A program made the position numbers and the translations under genes. A stretch of 35,280 nucleotides of DNA. Source: Gemmataceae bacterium (lineage in GTDB: Bacteria > Planctomycetota > Planctomycetia > Gemmatales > Gemmataceae). The DNA is taken from positions 1 through 35,280 of the forward strand of contig DATGHS010000223.1 in assembly GCA_035307785.1 (NCBI GenBank), read 5' to 3'. Every line of letters begins with the position of its first letter. Position 1 is the stretch's first letter. A model generated the notes under the pieces. It worked only from the letters and a program-made list of their open reading frames with translations, ran no database searches and was not told the origin of the DNA. This document shows, one piece after another, positions 1 to 5,443 of the stretch.

Positions 1-1410
1 GTCCCGATGCGCACGCTCACCGGCCACACCAATGCCGTGCTGTCGCTCGCCTTTTCGAGCGACGGGCAAACGCTGGCATCCGGAAGTGAAGACCGCACCA
101 TTCGACTGTGGGATTTGAAGGATTTGGCGAAGCGCAAGCCGCCCGTGCCATCGGAGACGCTGACCGGGCACACTGATGCCGTGGTAGCGCTGGCCTTCGC
201 GCCCGACGGCAAGACGCTGGCCAGCGGCAGCAGCTTCAACGATCAATCGTTGCGCCTGTGGGACGTGGCCCGGCGGCAGGAGCGGGCCCGGCTCAAAGGA
301 CACACCCGGGCCGTGTTTGCAGTCGCTTTTTCGCCCGATGGGCAAACGTTAGCGACCGGCAGCGTCGATCAAACGATTCGATTATGGGACCCCACGACCG
401 GCCGCGAGCGCACCGTTCTGCACGGCCATACCGCCCAGATTCTCACGCTGGCCTTTTCGCCGGACAATCGCCTGCTCGCCAGTGGCGGCTCCGATCGCGT
501 GGTGCGCCTATGGGACCTCGACGAACACCGGGAAGAAACGGAACAAGTGGGAGCGAAAGGCAAACTCGGGCCGATGCGCTTTGCCCCTGATGCCTCTTCA
601 CTCTGCTATGCCTACGATTCGCACCTGGAAGCCTTACAAATCGGCTCGAATACGAGTATCGAAATGCCGGGGCATTCCGGCGCCATTCGTCTGCTGGCCG
701 CTGGCGGCAATGATTACCTGGCATCCTACGGGGTCGATCAGACCGTGCGCATTTGGCAGCGTGGAAAACTCGTGCGCACCATGACCGGTTATCCGGCGGT
801 ACGCTCCCTGGCGATCTCGGCTAATGGTGCGCTGCTGGCCATTGCCGATGATCGCGGCATTCAGCTTTGGGACATTCGCGGCGGCGCCAGAGTAACGACG
901 CTTACGCAAGGCGTGGGCAGCGCCATGGTCCTCGCATTTTCTGCCGACGGACATTTTCTGGCGAGCGGCGGCCGAGATCGCCTCATCCGCGTGTGGGACA
1001 CGGTGAACCAGACCTTGTTCCGCACGTTGGCCGGCCATTCATTGGAAATCCGCGCGCTGGCCTTTTCGCCAAAGGGGCTTGGGCTGGCTAGTGGCAGTGC
1101 CCGCGGCCGAATCTTTCTTTGGGACTTGGCGGATAATCCTCTGGCCGACAATTCCGTTAAGCCGCTCGAATTATCGGGCCATGCGGACGCCATCTCGGCC
1201 CTGGCATTCACTCCCGACGGCAAGACATTGGCGAGCGGCGGCCGCGACCGGACGATCAAACTCTGGGACGCGCATACCGGGCAGGAGCGAGCGACGCTTA
1301 CGGGCCATACCGAACATCTGGAAGACCTTGCCTTTGGCGCTGACAGCACCCTCTTGGCGTCGGTGACTTCGGACGGTACGATCAAGCTCTGGCGGGCGGA
1401 CAGGCACTAA
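1..1410 (+). CDS. WD40-repeat protein, 5'-truncated by window edge (reading frame open from base 1; ORF track starts at M at 7)
   Basis: Repeated GH-x-AV-x-LAFSPDG-x-LASGS-D-x-TIRLWD units (at least 9 WD40 blades). Stop at 1408-1410. Confidence 0.8.
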   Translation, partial: VPMRTLTGHTNAVLSLAFSSDGQTLASGSEDRTIRLWDLKDLAKRKPPVPSETLTGHTDAVVALAFAPDGKTLASGSSFNDQSLRLWDVARRQERARLKGHTRAVFAVAFSPDGQTLATGSVDQTIRLWDPTTGRERTVLHGHTAQILTLAFSPDNRLLASGGSDRVVRLWDLDEHREETEQVGAKGKLGPMRFAPDASSLCYAYDSHLEALQIGSNTSIEMPGHSGAIRLLAAGGNDYLASYGVDQTVRIWQRGKLVRTMTGYPAVRSLAISANGALLAIADDRGIQLWDIRGGARVTTLTQGVGSAMVLAFSADGHFLASGGRDRLIRVWDTVNQTLFRTLAGHSLEIRALAFSPKGLGLASGSARGRIFLWDLADNPLADNSVKPLELSGHADAISALAFTPDGKTLASGGRDRTIKLWDAHTGQERATLTGHTEHLEDLAFGADSTLLASVTSDGTIKLWRADRH

Positions 1411-1493
1411 TAGCGGCAGAGCGTTGCATTTCTTGTCCCCGTTGCCGCGAGGTGGAAGGACAAGACCTGAGTTTCTTTCAACCGGAGGTTATC

Positions 1494-1925
1494 GTGAATC
1501 TTCGTCACGTTGGGTTCCTGATCGTGGCTTGCGCCACGTCTTTGGGCCTGGCCAATCACGTCCAGTCGGACGATATCGTGTCCATTGATCCCGGCTCCTA
1601 CGCTGCCATCGCCTACTCGCCGAAGACCACGAAGATTGGCGTGGGCTACAATTTTTCCAGTCGTGCCGCAGCCGAAAAGGAAGCGCTCAAAGAGTGCAGT
1701 GCGGACGACGCGCGAATCGTGACTTGGGTTAACGAGGGCTTCTGCGCCTTGGCCTTGGGCGACGACAAGAGTGTTTGGGGCGTTGGCTGGAGCTATGGCA
1801 ACGGCGCCAGCACCCGGGAGGCAAAAGCTTTTGCCCTGGAGGAATGCAACAAGCGCACGAAGAACGGAGAGATCTGGGCAGTGGTTTGCTCGTCCGATGC
1901 CGTGAAGCCATTCATCAAGAAGTGA
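1494..1925 (+). CDS. Secreted DUF4189-family protein (alternative ATG start at 1452)
   Basis: GTG at 1494 preceded by GGAGG (1482-1486). N-terminal signal peptide VNLRHVGFLIVACATSLGLA. Motifs AIAYSP...GVGYNFSSRAAAEKEAL..C....IV.W...FCALALG...WGVGW resemble DUF4189. Confidence 0.6.
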   Translation: MNLRHVGFLIVACATSLGLANHVQSDDIVSIDPGSYAAIAYSPKTTKIGVGYNFSSRAAAEKEALKECSADDARIVTWVNEGFCALALGDDKSVWGVGWSYGNGASTREAKAFALEECNKRTKNGEIWAVVCSSDAVKPFIKK

Positions 1926-2018: not shown

Positions 2019-3029
2019 CTATTTCTTCACCCCCAGCATTCGATCCAGCGAATCCGAAGTTTGGTATATCAGCGCTTCTGGGAAGTGCGGATACGGGTGG
2101 AAATACTCGAAGGTGAGATACCCGCGATACCCCGTCTGATCGAATGCTTCGAGAACCGCCGGCCAATTCGTCGTTCCGTCCAAGAGCGGACGGAATGACT
2201 CCAGCGAATAGTCGGTGCCCTTCTTGGTGAATTCCTTCAGGTGCACATTTTTGATGCGCTTGCCCATTTGCATGATCCAGTGCTCGGGAAACTGGAACAT
2301 CATGATGTTGCCGGTGTCGAAATGCACGCGCACCCATTCGCTCTGGAAACTATCGACGAACGCGTTCATCTCCATCGGCGTCATCAGGTAGCCGTTGAAG
2401 AAGATGTTCTCGATGTTCAGGCTGACTTTTAGTTTTTCGGCTAGGGGCAGCAGTTTGCCAATGGCCTCCTTGGCCCGGCGGTCGCAAACATCGTTTGGCA
2501 CCGGCTCGTGATCGGTCCGCCAGGGAATATGCACGGCCCCGGGGACAACGAGCAGATTCTCAACGCCCAGTTCATGCGCGGCTTCAGTCATCTTGGTGGC
2601 CAGCTCCAGCGAACGCTTGCGCTTGGACGCATCGTTGCTGCTCATTGGGTAGGGCCAGAAGAGGAATGAACAAAGCCCGCTGATGGCGATGCCGATTTTT
2701 TCGGCCAGCAGACGGATCGCTTGCAATTCCTTAGGTCCGGCCTTGGGCGAGAGGTCGTTGTCCAGGTCGTAATTCAATTCGATGGCGTCGAACCCGGCAT
2801 CCTTCGCCAACCGCAGGCATTGTTCCAGGTTCATCTGCTGCGGATAGGGAAACGCCCACTGGTTGATCGACTTCTTGAAGTCGTACTTCTTAACCGGTAG
2901 CCGTTTCGGCTGCGGCTGCTCGTCGGCATGAATGTTCTGGGCAAACGGCCCGGCGAACAGGGCCGAACCAGCGGCAGCGGCGTAACCAAGCAATTCGCGG
3001 CGATGCAAGGGAGAAGTGGGGTCGAACAT
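2019..3029 (-). CDS. Sugar phosphate isomerase/epimerase (xylose-isomerase-like TIM barrel), Tat-type signal
   Basis: ORF 2019-3083. Likely start at M (3029) giving MFDPTSPLHRRELLGYAAAAGSALFAG, a twin-arginine-like signal. TIM-barrel hydrolase/isomerase-like composition (FDAIEL, ENLLVVPG, HFDTGN). Confidence 0.65.
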   Translation of the reverse strand: MFDPTSPLHRRELLGYAAAAGSALFAGPFAQNIHADEQPQPKRLPVKKYDFKKSINQWAFPYPQQMNLEQCLRLAKDAGFDAIELNYDLDNDLSPKAGPKELQAIRLLAEKIGIAISGLCSFLFWPYPMSSNDASKRKRSLELATKMTEAAHELGVENLLVVPGAVHIPWRTDHEPVPNDVCDRRAKEAIGKLLPLAEKLKVSLNIENIFFNGYLMTPMEMNAFVDSFQSEWVRVHFDTGNIMMFQFPEHWIMQMGKRIKNVHLKEFTKKGTDYSLESFRPLLDGTTNWPAVLEAFDQTGYRGYLTFEYFHPYPHFPEALIYQTSDSLDRMLGVKK

Positions 3030-3164
3030 GGTGAGGACTCCTGCTTGAGATTGTAAGAAAAGTGCTGCGGAGCATTCTCGCATTGCCGGCTTGGGGATTC
3101 AAGAGAACTGACGATACCTGATACAATTTCAAAGATCGGCTGTTGAACTGATGCGAGACTACCT

Positions 3165-3371
3165 ATGCCGCTGCAAATTGAAATTGAACAAGAAGAAGAC
3201 GGGCGCTGGCTAGCGGAAGTGCCTGAACTTCCGGGCGTATTGAGCTACGGTAAGACGCGCCAGGAAGCAATTGACCGCGCGCAAGCGCTGTCGCTTCGTG
3301 TTATCGCTGACCGGTTAGAACATGGCGAGCCGGTGCCGGAAATGAGCCAAGTGTTCGCGGTGGTGTCATGA
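3165..3371 (+). CDS. hicB: HicB-like antitoxin (UPF0150 / HicB_lk_antitox-like)
   Basis: 68 aa. EDGRWLAEVPELPGVLSYGKTRQEAIDRA matches the HicB N-terminal fold motif. 4-nt overlap (ATGA) with downstream hicA. Confidence 0.7.
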   Translation: MPLQIEIEQEEDGRWLAEVPELPGVLSYGKTRQEAIDRAQALSLRVIADRLEHGEPVPEMSQVFAVVS

Positions 3372-3583
3372 GCCAGTGGCCGTCGACCAAAGCGCGCCGG
3401 GTGCTGGCGGCTTTGCTCCGAATTGGCTGGCGGGTCAAGCGACAATCGGGCACATCACATAAGGTTTTGGAACGCAACGGTTGGCCAGATTATGTGTTCG
3501 CTTTTCATGATGACGAGGAGATCGGGCCGCGAATGCTTGCCCGCATTGCTAAGCGCACTGGTTTAGCGCCGGGGGATTTGTAA
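3368..3583 (+). CDS. hicA: HicA family toxin (YcfA-like mRNA interferase)
   Basis: 71 aa. KARRVLAALLRIGWRVKRQSGSH.VL...GW.D.VFAFHDDEEIGPRMLARIAKRTGL matches HicA pattern (K..ev...L...GW...RqkGSH..f.......vPvH...dl..g.l..Ilkq.GL). Confidence 0.75.
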   Translation: MSQWPSTKARRVLAALLRIGWRVKRQSGTSHKVLERNGWPDYVFAFHDDEEIGPRMLARIAKRTGLAPGDL

Positions 3584-3587
3584 CCGA

Positions 3588-4025
3588 TTAAATCCCAAGA
3601 ACTGAAATGCATTCGTGCTTCTGCAGTTGCTCAGTTAACCAAGCCGCTAGCTCCCGAATCATGTTGGTCAGATCTTTAGCATTAACAGCCAAATTCGCTG
3701 CAAAATCCGCTTCAGTATTCTGGTAGAAAAACCCGATCGATTCCGGAATCTCGCTTATAGATCGCACCGATGTTAGGTTTTGCGCAAGTTCGTCCAGATC
3801 GGAAATGACTTTTCGACAAGTAGTTTTGGAAACCGTTACAAAACCATAGTGGGCGAACCCAGGTACTTGACGTTCAAATACTGGTTCTATTAAACCAAAG
3901 ACCTCCTCATCCAAAAACACCGACTCGTCCTTCCAGCAGCTACCCTGGTATTCCCCGGGCATGAATTCGAAGTAACAGGTACCCACGAGTTCATTTTTGT
4001 TTCGAATGAGCCGAATCCGTCGCAT
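3588..4025 (-). CDS. Hypothetical protein, low-GC gene downstream of a HicB-like antitoxin (ORF extends to 4100; M at 4025 is the more likely start)
   Basis: ORF 3588-4100 (170 aa). No family recognised. Local GC markedly lower (~45%) than the surrounding ~60%. Co-directional and 20-95 nt downstream of HicB-like gene 4121-4342. Confidence 0.45.
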   Translation of the reverse strand: MRRIRLIRNKNELVGTCYFEFMPGEYQGSCWKDESVFLDEEVFGLIEPVFERQVPGFAHYGFVTVSKTTCRKVISDLDELAQNLTSVRSISEIPESIGFFYQNTEADFAANLAVNAKDLTNMIRELAAWLTEQLQKHECISVLGI

Positions 4026-4120
4026 GTCGTCACGTTTGCCACAACAGCGTTGGCACGTCCTCCCGCAGAACCTCGCGCTCCGAGATGGAACACACCTCAT
4101 AGCCGGACAAAACTCGGAGT

Positions 4121-4342
4121 TTACCCAACGGCCACCTCGATCTGCGTTACGAAAACGTCGCCGCCAAGTCGTTGCTGAACTTCAGCAGGCGATGCCCACT
4201 CGAAAAACAACTCAACAGCTTCGCGCAGATTATCGCGCGCTAATTCGATTGAATCCCCTTGGCTGGCAATGTCCAGCTCGGGACAAAGAGCAACGAAGCC
4301 GTCGTCTTCTTTTTGAATGATTGCCGTTAGTTGATTGCTCAT
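4121..4342 (-). CDS. HicB-like antitoxin domain protein (short HicB_lk_antitox form)
   Basis: 73 aa. IIQKEDDGFVALCPELDIASQGDSIELARDNLREAVELFFE matches the short HicB-like antitoxin consensus (..IEK.EDGGY.A.vPELPGC.SQGeT.EEA..N.kEAIELYLE). Confidence 0.65.
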   Translation of the reverse strand: MSNQLTAIIQKEDDGFVALCPELDIASQGDSIELARDNLREAVELFFEWASPAEVQQRLGGDVFVTQIEVAVG

Positions 4343-4414: not shown

Positions 4415-5443
4415 TCACGTCTCCCCCAGCAACGTCGGCACCTTCTCGCGCAACAGGTCGATTTCCTGGTGCGTCTCACCGAGGTACGCCAGCAGCTTCA
4501 GGTCGTCACGGCGGACGGTGCCTCCGGAAAGCAACCACGAGCGCACGCGGAAGAGCTTGTACAGCTTCACGAGCTTGCGGTCGCTGATGAAGATGCGGTC
4601 TTCGCGCACCAGGGTTTTCACGATGCGCTGGAATTCGCGGAACACGTCCGGCGGGAAAAACAAATTGCGGTCGTTCTGCTCCTCGCTGTGCCGGCCATCT
4701 TCGATCTTGCGCGCGAACATGTAGGTGAGGTAGCGATTGGCTTTCAGCAAGTCTTCCAGCGTGCAATGCCCTTCCGCCCAGGGCCGCTGATTCAGGCCCC
4801 GCCATGATTCGGATTGGAGCCCATTGTCAATTAGCTCGGTAAAGAACTCGTCCTGCACGCTGCGGCTTTCGATCTTGAGCACGAAGCGGTCTTTCAGCGC
4901 CGCCAGTTCGCCTTGCTCCGGCACCTCATTCGTGGCCGCGAACAGGATGCGCAACTTTACCGGCACCGGGATGCCGTCCTGGTAGAACTTCTTTTCGTTA
5001 ATGATCGTGAGCAGGATGTTGAGGATCGCGGAGTTCGATTTGAAAATTTCATCGAGGAAGGCCAGCCGGGCCGTCGGCAGCTTGCCCTGCTCGCGCCGGA
5101 TGTAGCGGCCGTTGCGCAGTTCATTGATGTCGATGGGGCCAATTATTTCCGATGGCTCAGTGAAGCGCGTGAGCATGTACTCAAAGTAATCTTCGCTGCC
5201 CAGGCCTAGCGCGTCTTTGAACTTCAGCACCATGTCCGACTTGGCGGTGCCCGGCGGTCCGACCAACAGCAATGGCTCTTGAGCGATGGCGGCAACCACC
5301 ATCAGGTCGATGATGTCTTGCTTGTCCACGAAAAAGCGGTTGAGCGAAATGCGAAAACGGTTGATTTTCCCGCGCAATTGCTCCGCCTCTTGCTGCAACT
5401 CGGCAAACGTGGCTTCTTCGGCTTTCTCCATCAAGTCCGGCAT
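4415..5443 (-). CDS. AAA+ ATPase, MoxR/RavA-like (AAA_5-type)
   Basis: Walker A LLLVGPPGTAKS. Walker B LAFLDEIFK. Sensor region FAATNE. No adjacent VWA-domain partner seen. Confidence 0.8.
   Translation of the reverse strand: MPDLMEKAEEATFAELQQEAEQLRGKINRFRISLNRFFVDKQDIIDLMVVAAIAQEPLLLVGPPGTAKSDMVLKFKDALGLGSEDYFEYMLTRFTEPSEIIGPIDINELRNGRYIRREQGKLPTARLAFLDEIFKSNSAILNILLTIINEKKFYQDGIPVPVKLRILFAATNEVPEQGELAALKDRFVLKIESRSVQDEFFTELIDNGLQSESWRGLNQRPWAEGHCTLEDLLKANRYLTYMFARKIEDGRHSEEQNDRNLFFPPDVFREFQRIVKTLVREDRIFISDRKLVKLYKLFRVRSWLLSGGTVRRDDLKLLAYLGETHQEIDLLREKVPTLLGET

What the first reader, a model, noticed from the sequence alone, without database searches (positions are those of the whole stretch)
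3165..4342. Toxin-antitoxin island: hicB-hicA plus a convergent HicB-like antitoxin paired with an unassigned low-GC gene
3165-3583 is a HicB-HicA pair with a 4-nt overlap. Immediately convergent, a second short HicB-like protein (4121-4342) sits 20-95 nt upstream of a 145-170-aa protein with no recognisable family that is clearly not HicA-like. In type II TA operons the antitoxin commonly precedes its toxin, so 3588-4025 is a candidate non-canonical toxin partner for a HicB-like antitoxin. Alternatively it is an unrelated horizontally acquired gene.
Basis: inference. Interest (0 to 1): 0.65.

Follow-up and report, generated by a model that had tools for sequence, protein, structure and literature searches.

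The report
Decayed HicAB module beside acquired gene
The "mystery toxin" next to the second HicB antitoxin is not its partner: the true partner, a HicA toxin gene, was cut down to a 69-base stump when a foreign, low-GC gene for a small acidic, probably inhibitor-type protein replaced it, so this is an ordinary decayed toxin-antitoxin locus.

Summary
3165-3583 is an intact hicB-hicA pair with a 4-nt overlap. 4121-4342 encodes a HicB-family protein (HicB2). Downstream of it lies a family-less, low-GC ORF.

- The 95-nt "spacer" holds the 5' stump of a hicA gene (4128->4060, frameshifted). It starts 8 nt inside hicB2, exactly as intact HicA partners do elsewhere.
- An 84%-identical relative (L021) has hicB2, an intact 73-aa hicA and a membrane-protein gene, then the same convergent hicA1. 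The window replaces about 766 bp of that with a 476-bp segment (3584-4059, GC 0.47 vs 0.60) carrying only the ORF.
- 0 of 84 HicB2 loci carry the ORF. 0 of 10 ORF-homolog loci tested carry HicB, HicA or MoxR.

The ORF is 145 aa (ATG at 4025). It belongs to an unnamed, mostly stand-alone acidic family of about 750 cluster representatives. It has a YfbM/DMP12-like fold at weak scores and no conserved catalytic-type residues. One relative is fused to Barstar, one is a tandem duplicate, and one sits between ankyrin and SUKH genes. My best guess is an orphan immunity or inhibitor-type protein, not a toxin. Interest is low to moderate.

The parts
3165..3371 (+). hicB1: short (68 aa) HicB-like antitoxin with no DNA-binding domain; intact
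   Evidence: Pfam HicB_lk_antitox E 1.8e-6, 28.6 bits against cut-off 27. Acidic, pI 4.4. 4-nt overlap with hicA1.
3368..3583 (+). hicA1: 71-aa HicA toxin; intact
   Evidence: Pfam HicA_toxin E 3.2e-10, 40.4 bits against cut-off 27. It contains a G-T-S-H stretch at the position where the HicA2 partners read GSH (direct reading). Basic, pI 10.9. Homologous DNA is present at the same convergent position in L021 (75% identity).
3584..4059 (.). 476-bp replacement segment with no counterpart in relative L021. It carries ORF145 plus a 34-nt leader and a 4-nt trailer.
   Evidence: Window/L021 homology stops at 4060 and resumes at 3582. GC 0.466 against 0.597 for the window. No flanking repeats, promoter or terminator consensus.
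3588..4025 (-). ORF145: 145-aa acidic alpha/beta protein of an unnamed family. Putative orphan immunity or inhibitor-type protein; not a toxin partner.
4030..4128 (-). hicA2 remnant. TTG start 8 nt inside hicB2. HicA homology runs 4128->4060, with a 1-nt deletion near 4076. The remnant ORF of 32 codons ends at TGA 4032-4030, 4 nt before the ORF145 ATG.
   Evidence: tblastn with L018 HicA: LGKLRVLSGYEVCSISER, 15/18 identical, E 2e-5. DNA alignment to L021 hicA. Same 8-nt overlap as intact partners. Homology ends before the GSH stretch conserved in intact partners (residues 28-30 of L018 HicA).
4121..4342 (-). hicB2: intact 73-aa HicB-family antitoxin, now orphaned
   Evidence: 4036 homologous clusters, the best 120 at 74-95% identity, annotated as HicB by sources. 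Intact HicA partner in 44-51 of 81 evaluable loci. Profile hit to TTHA1756, E 0.0013. 22 synonymous against 4 non-synonymous codon differences from L021.
4415..5443 (-). Context only: bpMoxR-type AAA+ ATPase upstream on the same strand. MoxR->hicB2 synteny is conserved in relatives.
   Evidence: Pfam bpMoxR E 7.8e-58. Same order in L021 and in the P0011 contig.

Best explanation
The region holds two HicAB-type type II toxin-antitoxin modules facing each other.

The first, hicB1-hicA1 (3165-3583, + strand), is intact and canonical.

The second, on the - strand, was originally hicB2-hicA2, with the toxin gene starting at a TTG 8 nt inside the antitoxin gene. In this lineage a 476-bp low-GC segment (3584-4059) replaced the 3' two-thirds of hicA2 and a neighbouring membrane-protein gene. 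What remains is an intact orphan hicB2 (4121-4342) and a dead, frameshifted 69-nt hicA2 stump (4128->4060). The stump has lost the part of the gene that holds the conserved GSH stretch.

The incoming segment carries one gene, ORF145 (4025->3588, 145 aa). It is therefore not the toxin of HicB2. It is an unrelated, horizontally acquired gene that happens to sit where the toxin used to be. This much is shown by comparison with relatives.

The following is inferred.
- ORF145 is probably expressed from the hicB2 (or MoxR-hicB2) transcript. Translational coupling is possible, because the remnant ORF's stop codon lies 4 nt before the ORF145 ATG.
- ORF145 is most likely a non-enzymatic binding protein of the immunity or inhibitor type, that is, an orphan immunity protein against a toxin delivered by other bacteria. 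I put this at about 0.45.
- HicB2 persists either as a decaying relic or as an orphan antitoxin able to buffer related HicA toxins.

The confidence of 0.85 applies to the shown part: a decayed hicBA module, with ORF145 an unrelated replacement and not the toxin.
For: The hicA2 stump:
- tblastn of the HicA partner from L018 finds window 4128->4075, 15/18 identical, E 2e-5. The start overlaps the hicB2 stop exactly as in L018.
- DNA homology to L021 continues to 4060, with a 1-nt deletion.

The replacement:
- L021 2-995 matches window 5044->4060 at 84% identity. L021 1762-2010 matches window 3582->3333 at 75%.
- Between those, L021 has an intact 73-aa HicA plus a 189-aa Peptidase_M50B-like membrane protein. 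The window has ORF145.
- Segment GC is 0.466 against 0.597.

The canonical partner of HicB2 is HicA:
- Of 81 evaluable loci, 44 have an intact HicA with a standard start, 7 have an intact frame with CTG at that position, about 29 are disrupted and 1 has none.
- ORF145 appears in 0 of 84 by tblastn and by profile search.

ORF145 is a stand-alone gene:
- No HicB, HicA or MoxR lies within +-5 kb in 10 loci.
- No neighbour is conserved across those loci.
- The family has 756 representatives, nearly all 140-150 aa.

Inhibitor-type reading of ORF145:
- Median pI of the family is 4.87, against 10.9 for HicA1.
- The only positions at least 90% conserved are M1, L13, E20, G24, W31, S35, W129 and G144. 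This is not a catalytic constellation.
- P0233 is a TM + Barstar + ORF145-domain protein, in a locus with a second Barstar protein.
- P0261 is a tandem duplicate of the domain.
- In Gemmata algarum the order is ankyrin -> ORF145 homolog -> SMI1_KNR4/SUKH-1, all on one strand.
- Tandem repeats of one immunity domain, fusions of unrelated immunity domains and tandem arrays of immunity genes are described for immunity proteins in PMC3482391.

Not an artefact: three independent assemblies are at least 99.97% identical over 4.0-6.2 kb spanning the region.
Against: - The immunity or inhibitor assignment rests on one Barstar fusion, one tandem duplicate and one suggestive neighbourhood among the roughly 165 family members and loci I looked at.
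- No adjacent toxin gene was seen in any locus.
- Profile comparison with a shallow YfbM alignment found no similarity.
- In two Acidobacteria the gene sits among metabolic genes.
- Only one relative (L021, plus its shorter copies L022 and L023) shows the pre-replacement state. The direction of the event is inferred from the truncated hicA and the GC contrast.
- Co-transcription and translational coupling are untested. No promoter consensus was found, and the scan is for sigma-70-type sites only.
Confidence: 0.85

Rival explanations
1. ORF145 is a novel, non-HicA toxin whose cognate antitoxin is the upstream HicB-like protein: a new HicB-X type II TA pair.
For: Same strand, downstream of a HicB-family gene, with no recognised family. 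The remnant ORF's stop lies 4 nt before the ORF145 ATG, so the two could be co-expressed.
Against: - The true HicA partner is still recognisable as a stump between the two genes.
- The 84%-identical relative L021 has an intact hicA and no ORF145.
- 0 of 84 HicB2 loci have ORF145. 0 of 10 ORF145 loci have a HicB.
- The family is almost always a stand-alone gene with no conserved neighbour. A toxin could not persist like that.
- It is acidic, whereas HicA1 is basic. It has no conserved catalytic-type residues.
Confidence: 0.03
2. ORF145 is a YfbM/DMP12-like cytoplasmic regulator, for example a DNA-mimic protein that binds a nucleoid or DNA-binding protein. It has no role in inter-bacterial conflict, and its position next to hicB2 is accidental.
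For: - The family is acidic.
- Most members are solitary genes, some among metabolic genes.
- P0192 is fused to an HTH_17 domain (E 4.1e-5, 24.2 bits, below the cut-off of 27).
Against: - No sequence-level link to DUF1877 or to any PDB chain.
- The Barstar fusion, the tandem duplicate and the Ank/SUKH neighbourhood point to immunity-type roles instead.
- The two readings overlap mechanistically: both describe acidic proteins that block another protein by binding it.
Confidence: 0.25
3. Neo-operon. After replacing hicA2, ORF145 has been functionally recruited in this lineage, and HicB2 now regulates or binds it. That would be a lineage-specific new pairing rather than an ancestral one.
For: - hicB2 is intact and differs from L021 mostly by synonymous changes (22 against 4).
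- Spacing between the remnant ORF and ORF145 is tight.
- The arrangement is stable across three samples.
Against: - The three assemblies are essentially one strain (at least 99.97% identical), so there is no evidence of long-term retention.
- The synonymous excess mostly reflects selection before the event.
- HicB2 has no DNA-binding domain.
- Intact orphan hicB beside a decayed hicA is common in this family without ORF145.
Confidence: 0.05
4. Metagenome assembly chimera: the low-GC block was stitched in by the assembler.
For: Abrupt GC drop and sharp homology breakpoints.
Against: Identical arrangement in contigs from three independent samples and assemblers: JGI 3300027842, ENA ERZ27279682 and Logan SRR5579864.
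Confidence: 0.01

Closest known systems
HicAB type II toxin-antitoxin systems, short HicB/UPF0150 antitoxin form (Pfam PF15919/PF21748 with PF07927)
   Same: hicB1-hicA1 is a standard member: antitoxin first, a 4-nt overlap, an acidic antitoxin and a basic toxin. hicB2 belongs to a large HicB family whose members are normally followed by an overlapping 73-aa HicA.
   Different: The second module has lost its toxin. Only 69 nt of hicA2 remain, and they are frameshifted. Both HicB proteins are single-domain (68 and 73 aa), shorter than the 123-position HicB_lk_antitox profile, of which they match only about the first half. From general knowledge, many HicB proteins carry a C-terminal RHH or HTH DNA-binding domain.
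Degenerate TA loci with orphan antitoxins
   Same: An intact antitoxin sits beside an inactivated toxin gene. The same pattern recurs in about a third of the related HicB2 loci sampled.
   Different: Here the toxin was removed by replacement with a foreign gene, not only by a point mutation or frameshift. That created the false impression of a new antitoxin-toxin pair.
Immunity proteins of polymorphic toxin systems, including polyimmunity proteins and loci (Zhang et al. 2012, PMC3482391)
   Same: Small, acidic and non-catalytic in appearance. Patchy phylogenetic spread: Planctomycetota, Acidobacteriota, Verrucomicrobiota. GC is below the surroundings in 10 of 13 loci. One member is fused to Barstar, one is a tandem duplicate, and one is flanked by Ank and SUKH-1 genes.
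   Different: The family matches no Pfam-A model, including its Imm families. No adjacent toxin was found. The supporting contexts are few.
YfbM/DUF1877 (PDB 1ryl) and Neisseria DNA-mimic protein DMP12 (PDB 3w1o)
   Different: No detectable sequence or profile similarity. Foldseek is not significant. The function of YfbM is itself unknown.

Membership tests
HicA toxin (PF07927): gene 3368-3583 | Profile match above the Pfam gathering score | tested here: met
   E 3.2e-10, 40.4 bits against 27.
HicA toxin (PF07927): gene 3368-3583 | Adjacent, overlapping HicB-family gene | tested here: met
   hicB1 ends at 3371 and hicA1 starts at 3368.
HicB-like antitoxin (PF15919): gene 3165-3371 | Profile match above the gathering score | tested here: met
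   28.6 bits against 27, E 1.8e-6. This is marginal but above the cut-off.
HicB/UPF0150 antitoxin: gene 4121-4342 | Profile match above the gathering score | tested here: not met
   UPF0150 15.9 bits against 27.3. HicB_lk 12.9 bits against 27. A family profile hits the 67-aa uncharacterised protein TTHA1756 (2yzt) at E 0.0013.
HicB/UPF0150 antitoxin: gene 4121-4342 | Conserved operon partner is a HicA toxin | tested here: met
   The partner is PF07927-positive in L018-L020. An intact HicA frame is present in 51 of 81 related loci and decayed HicA in about 29 more.
HicA toxin: remnant 4128-4030 | Full-length domain including the conserved GSH stretch (residues 28-30 of the partner HicA) | tested here: not met
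   Homology covers only codons 1-23, with a frameshift after codon 18. It is a pseudogene.
Type II TA toxin: ORF145 (3588-4025) | Recurrent adjacency to a cognate antitoxin gene across relatives | tested here: not met
   0 of 10 ORF145 loci have HicB or HicA. No neighbour is conserved. 0 of 84 HicB2 loci have ORF145.
Type II TA toxin: ORF145 (3588-4025) | Growth inhibition relieved by the antitoxin | not testable with these tools
   Needs an expression assay.
DUF1877 / YfbM (PF08974): ORF145 | Sequence or profile match to the family | tested here: not met
   No Pfam hit in any of 8 members. hhalign against a YfbM alignment gives probability 0.4% (the YfbM profile was shallow).
DUF1877 / YfbM (PF08974): ORF145 | Same fold | tested here: inconclusive
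Polymorphic-toxin immunity protein: ORF145 | Occurrence in polyimmunity proteins or loci (fusion or tandem with known immunity domains) | tested here: inconclusive
   One Barstar fusion, P0233. One tandem duplicate, P0261. One Ank-ORF145-SUKH-1 locus, L006. Most members are solitary.
Polymorphic-toxin immunity protein: ORF145 | Gene immediately downstream of a toxin whose activity it neutralises | tested here: not met
   No toxin domain was identified among the ORF145 neighbours I scanned. Pfam found nothing toxin-like in neighbours from L001, L003, L005, L006, L009 and L010. Precomputed Pfam hits for called genes in L001 and L002 also show none. Neutralisation itself is not testable here.

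The most novel reading that the evidence does not exclude
ORF145 founds a previously unnamed, widespread family of immunity or inhibitor proteins: about 750 clusters at 50% identity, spread across Planctomycetota, Acidobacteriota and Verrucomicrobiota. It has a YfbM/DMP12-like fold and a still-unknown target toxin. Here it has been captured into a dead hicBA operon, where it borrows the antitoxin's transcription and translation signals. A bolder version is that HicB2 and ORF145 now work together in this lineage.
Probability: 0.35. Interest if true: 0.45.

Novelty: new member of a known kind. Interest (0 to 1): 0.27.

Why it matters
The main value is as a corrective. A short antitoxin gene followed by an unassigned gene looks like a new TA pair. 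Here the apparent pairing is a scar of gene replacement, and the real toxin survives only as a 69-nt stump that gene callers ignore. Screens that mine "antitoxin + unknown neighbour" pairs for new toxins would score this as a false positive.

Two by-products may be useful.
- There is a sizeable uncharacterised protein family, absent from Pfam, with a confident structure model and hints of an immunity or inhibitor role.
- In this unusually conserved 73-aa HicB family, the toxin gene is decayed in roughly a third of the sampled loci while the antitoxin stays intact.

Tried and rejected
- Pfam, NCBIfam and PADLOC scans of ORF145 gave only noise. The weak VMAP-M1 hit (E 0.1) beside a MoxR gene looked tempting, but it appears in 1 of 8 members and L021 has MoxR without ORF145, so I rejected it.
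- Profile searches of PDB sequences with 8- and 88-sequence alignments found nothing.
- Foldseek against PDB and BFVD found nothing significant. The AFDB50 library was unavailable.
- hhalign against YfbM found no similarity. However, the YfbM alignment was shallow because the word-based search returned only enterobacterial sequences.
- I looked for mobile-element signatures at the junctions of the replaced segment: direct or inverted repeats, promoter, terminator. None were found.
- I considered whether hicA homology extends to the ORF145 ATG, as microhomology around CATGC-ACG. Local alignment ends at 4060, so this is not supported.
- An IMG/VR scan for phage-borne ORF145 relatives found none. 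The scan with the 88-sequence alignment could not be run.
- Literature searches for YfbM and DUF1877 turned up nothing functional.
- The 170-aa reading (ATG 4100) and NCBI's 110-aa model are both rejected in favour of 145 aa, on the basis of homolog alignment.

Full report
**What is in the sequence.** The window is a 35,280-bp contig of a Gemmataceae MAG, according to the source names.
- 3165-3371(+), 68 aa, matches HicB_lk_antitox (E 1.8e-6, 28.6 bits, cut-off 27).
- 3368-3583(+), 71 aa, matches HicA_toxin (E 3.2e-10, 40.4 bits). The two overlap by ATGA.
- On the other strand, 4342->4121 encodes a 73-aa protein, HicB2. Its own Pfam hits are sub-threshold (UPF0150 E 0.012, HicB_lk E 0.12).
- Downstream of it is an ORF listed as 170 aa (4100->3588), with no hit in Pfam, NCBIfam or PADLOC.
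- GC falls to 0.44-0.48 over 3450-4050, against about 0.60 elsewhere.

**The true extent of the unassigned ORF.** Seven homologs found by the word-indexed search are 143-147 aa, apart from one 115-aa protein with an internal deletion. They all begin M..IRLIRN..EL.GTCYFEF. The gene therefore starts at ATG 4025 and encodes 145 aa; I call it ORF145. The 25-residue Cys/Arg-rich extension of the 170-aa reading has no counterpart in homologs. NCBI's 110-aa model is too short at the N-terminus.

**HicB2 and its normal partner.** HicB2 belongs to a very large and unusually conserved family. There are 4036 clusters; the best 120 are 74-95% identical and nearly all are 73 aa. Sources name them HicB-family antitoxins. 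A profile of the family hits the 67-aa Thermus protein TTHA1756 (E 0.0013).

In L018-L020 the homolog is followed by a 73-aa PF07927 HicA. Its TTG start lies 8 nt inside hicB. I fetched 80 metagenomic loci and classified 84 loci in all.
- 44 have an intact HicA frame with a standard start at exactly that position.
- 7 have an intact 73-codon frame with CTG at that position.
- About 29 have a truncated or frameshifted HicA.
- 1 has none.
- 3 run off the contig.

None of the 84 contains an ORF145 relative, either by tblastn or by a family HMM on six-frame translations.

**The missed feature.** The 95 nt between hicB2 and ORF145 is not spacer. tblastn with the L018 HicA finds window 4128->4075 encoding LGKLRVLSGYEVCSISER. 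This is 15/18 identical (E 2e-5), and it starts at the same TTG 8 nt inside hicB2. It is the 5' stump of hicA2.

**The decisive comparison.** L021 is a 2-kb metagenome contig whose HicB2 is 95% identical.
- It aligns to window 5044->4060 at 84% identity. That stretch covers the MoxR 3' end, hicB2 and the first 69 nt of hicA2.
- It aligns again to window 3582->3333 at 75% identity, which is the convergent hicA1.
- Between those blocks, L021 carries the rest of an intact 73-aa HicA and a 189-aa membrane protein with a weak Peptidase_M50B hit.
- The window instead carries 476 bp (3584-4059) with GC 0.466. That segment consists of a 34-nt leader, ORF145 and 4 nt.

The stump also has a 1-nt deletion near 4076, which shifts the frame after codon 18.

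So ORF145 arrived by a replacement that destroyed hicA2 and removed a neighbouring gene. I found no repeats, promoter consensus or terminator at the junctions. The mechanism of insertion is unknown.

The arrangement is present at 99.97% identity or more in contigs from three other samples and assemblers. That rules out a chimera. It also shows that only one strain-level lineage is known to carry it.

**ORF145 elsewhere.**
- I tested ten loci from Gemmataceae (including Gemmata algarum), Thermoanaerobaculia, Pyrinomonadaceae, another Acidobacteriota MAG and Akkermansiaceae. No HicB, HicA or MoxR lies within +-5 kb in any of them.
- No neighbour is shared between loci, except between two closely related Acidobacteria.
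- An exhaustive profile search finds 756 cluster representatives at E<=1e-3, and 402 at E<=1e-10. Nearly all are stand-alone proteins of 140-150 aa.
- In 10 of 13 loci the gene's GC is below that of its surroundings, by up to 0.21. This fits frequent lateral movement.

A gene that is habitually solitary cannot be a TA toxin.

**What ORF145 might do.** The AF2 model is confident (pLDDT 91.9, pTM 0.88). It is a four-stranded sheet packed against long helices.
- Foldseek against PDB and BFVD is not significant.
- Sequence profiles link it to nothing.
- The family is acidic: median pI 4.87 and window protein 4.85, against 10.9 for HicA1.
- In an 88-sequence alignment, only M1, L13, E20, G24, W31, S35, W129 and G144 are at least 90% conserved. 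That is a structural pattern, not a catalytic one.

Rare architectures are informative.
- P0233 is TM + Barstar (E 4e-12) + ORF145 domain. It sits in a locus with a second Barstar protein.
- P0261 is a tandem duplicate of the domain.
- In Gemmata algarum JC673, the homolog lies between an ankyrin-repeat gene and an SMI1_KNR4/SUKH-1 gene on one strand.

Zhang et al. 2012 (PMC3482391) describe tandem repeats of one immunity domain, fusions of unrelated immunity domains and tandem arrays of immunity genes as typical of immunity proteins of polymorphic toxin systems. I therefore favour an orphan immunity or inhibitor-type binding protein, at about 0.45. A DMP12-like regulator is the main alternative. 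Both readings describe an acidic protein that blocks another protein by binding it. No cognate toxin was seen, so this remains inference.

**Expression (inferred).** hicB2, the 32-codon remnant ORF and ORF145 form a chain. The remnant starts 8 nt inside hicB2. Its TGA (4032-4030) lies 4 nt before the ORF145 ATG (4025-4023). The acquired gene could therefore ride on hicB2 transcription and be translationally coupled.

hicB2 itself is intact. It differs from the L021 copy by 22 synonymous and 4 non-synonymous codon changes.

**Verdict.** The locus is one canonical HicBA module, one decayed HicBA module (orphan antitoxin plus toxin stump) and an unrelated, laterally acquired gene of an unnamed family. 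Its alternative is supported. Novelty is limited to a new, probably immunity-type protein family and a clear example of how gene replacement can mimic a novel TA pair.

Noticed in passing
L011, L012 and L024-L103 (HicB2 loci); window 4060-4128: In the highly conserved 73-aa HicB2 family, about 29 of 81 evaluable loci have a truncated or frameshifted hicA next to an intact hicB. Some loci are the same lineage (L066/L070/L072 and L093/L097), and metagenome frameshift errors may contribute. Such strong antitoxin conservation (74-95% identity among the best 120 of 4036 clusters) alongside frequent toxin decay is unusual for a TA antitoxin.
   Followed up: partly
L021 926-1147; L038, L047, L050, L053, L065, L067, L071: HicA partners start at a TTG 8 nt inside hicB, and gene callers can miss them: the intact hicA in L021 was not called. 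Seven loci have CTG at that position with an intact 73-codon frame. This could be a non-canonical start or another start site.
   Followed up: no
window 4415-5443 (-) and 7-1410 (+): A bpMoxR-type AAA+ ATPase (Pfam E 7.8e-58; the family is named for MoxR-vWA-beta-propeller ternary systems) sits directly upstream of hicB2. No vWA gene lies among the adjacent ORFs I scanned. A WD40 beta-propeller ORF lies 3 kb away at the contig start. MoxR->hicB2 synteny is conserved in L021 and in the P0011 contig.
   Followed up: partly
window 3588-4025 (NCBI locus tag VKS79_10245): The deposited protein model is 110 aa. Homolog alignment shows that the conserved N-terminal 35 residues are encoded upstream, so the real product is 145 aa.
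   Followed up: yes
L105 3895-5091 and 5937-6629: A low-GC metagenome contig encodes a TM + Barstar + ORF145-domain protein and, 850 bp away, a second Barstar-domain protein of 230 aa. Several unannotated small genes lie between them. This may be a polyimmunity locus.
   Followed up: partly
L006 4437-6041 (Gemmata algarum JC673): An ankyrin-repeat gene, an ORF145 homolog (the short variant with an internal deletion) and an SMI1_KNR4/SUKH-1 gene lie in a row on one strand, downstream of a 598-aa protein with two aspartyl-protease domains.
   Followed up: partly
L002 1588-7935: An ORF145 homolog, the 115-aa variant with an internal deletion, lies at the edge of a prophage structural module (portal, S78 protease, capsid, connector). 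No ORF145 relatives were found in IMG/VR with the search patterns used.
   Followed up: partly
L021 1162-1731: A 189-aa multi-pass membrane protein with a weak Peptidase_M50B hit occupies the ancestral position between hicA2 and hicA1. It is absent from the window, lost in the same replacement event.
   Followed up: partly
window 1452-1925 (+) and 2019-3083 (-): A DUF4189 protein and a xylose-isomerase-like TIM-barrel protein flank the TA region. The TIM-barrel protein's N-terminus (…HRRELLGYAAAAGSALFAG…) looks like a twin-arginine signal by eye; I did not test this. Both look like ordinary chromosomal context.
   Followed up: no
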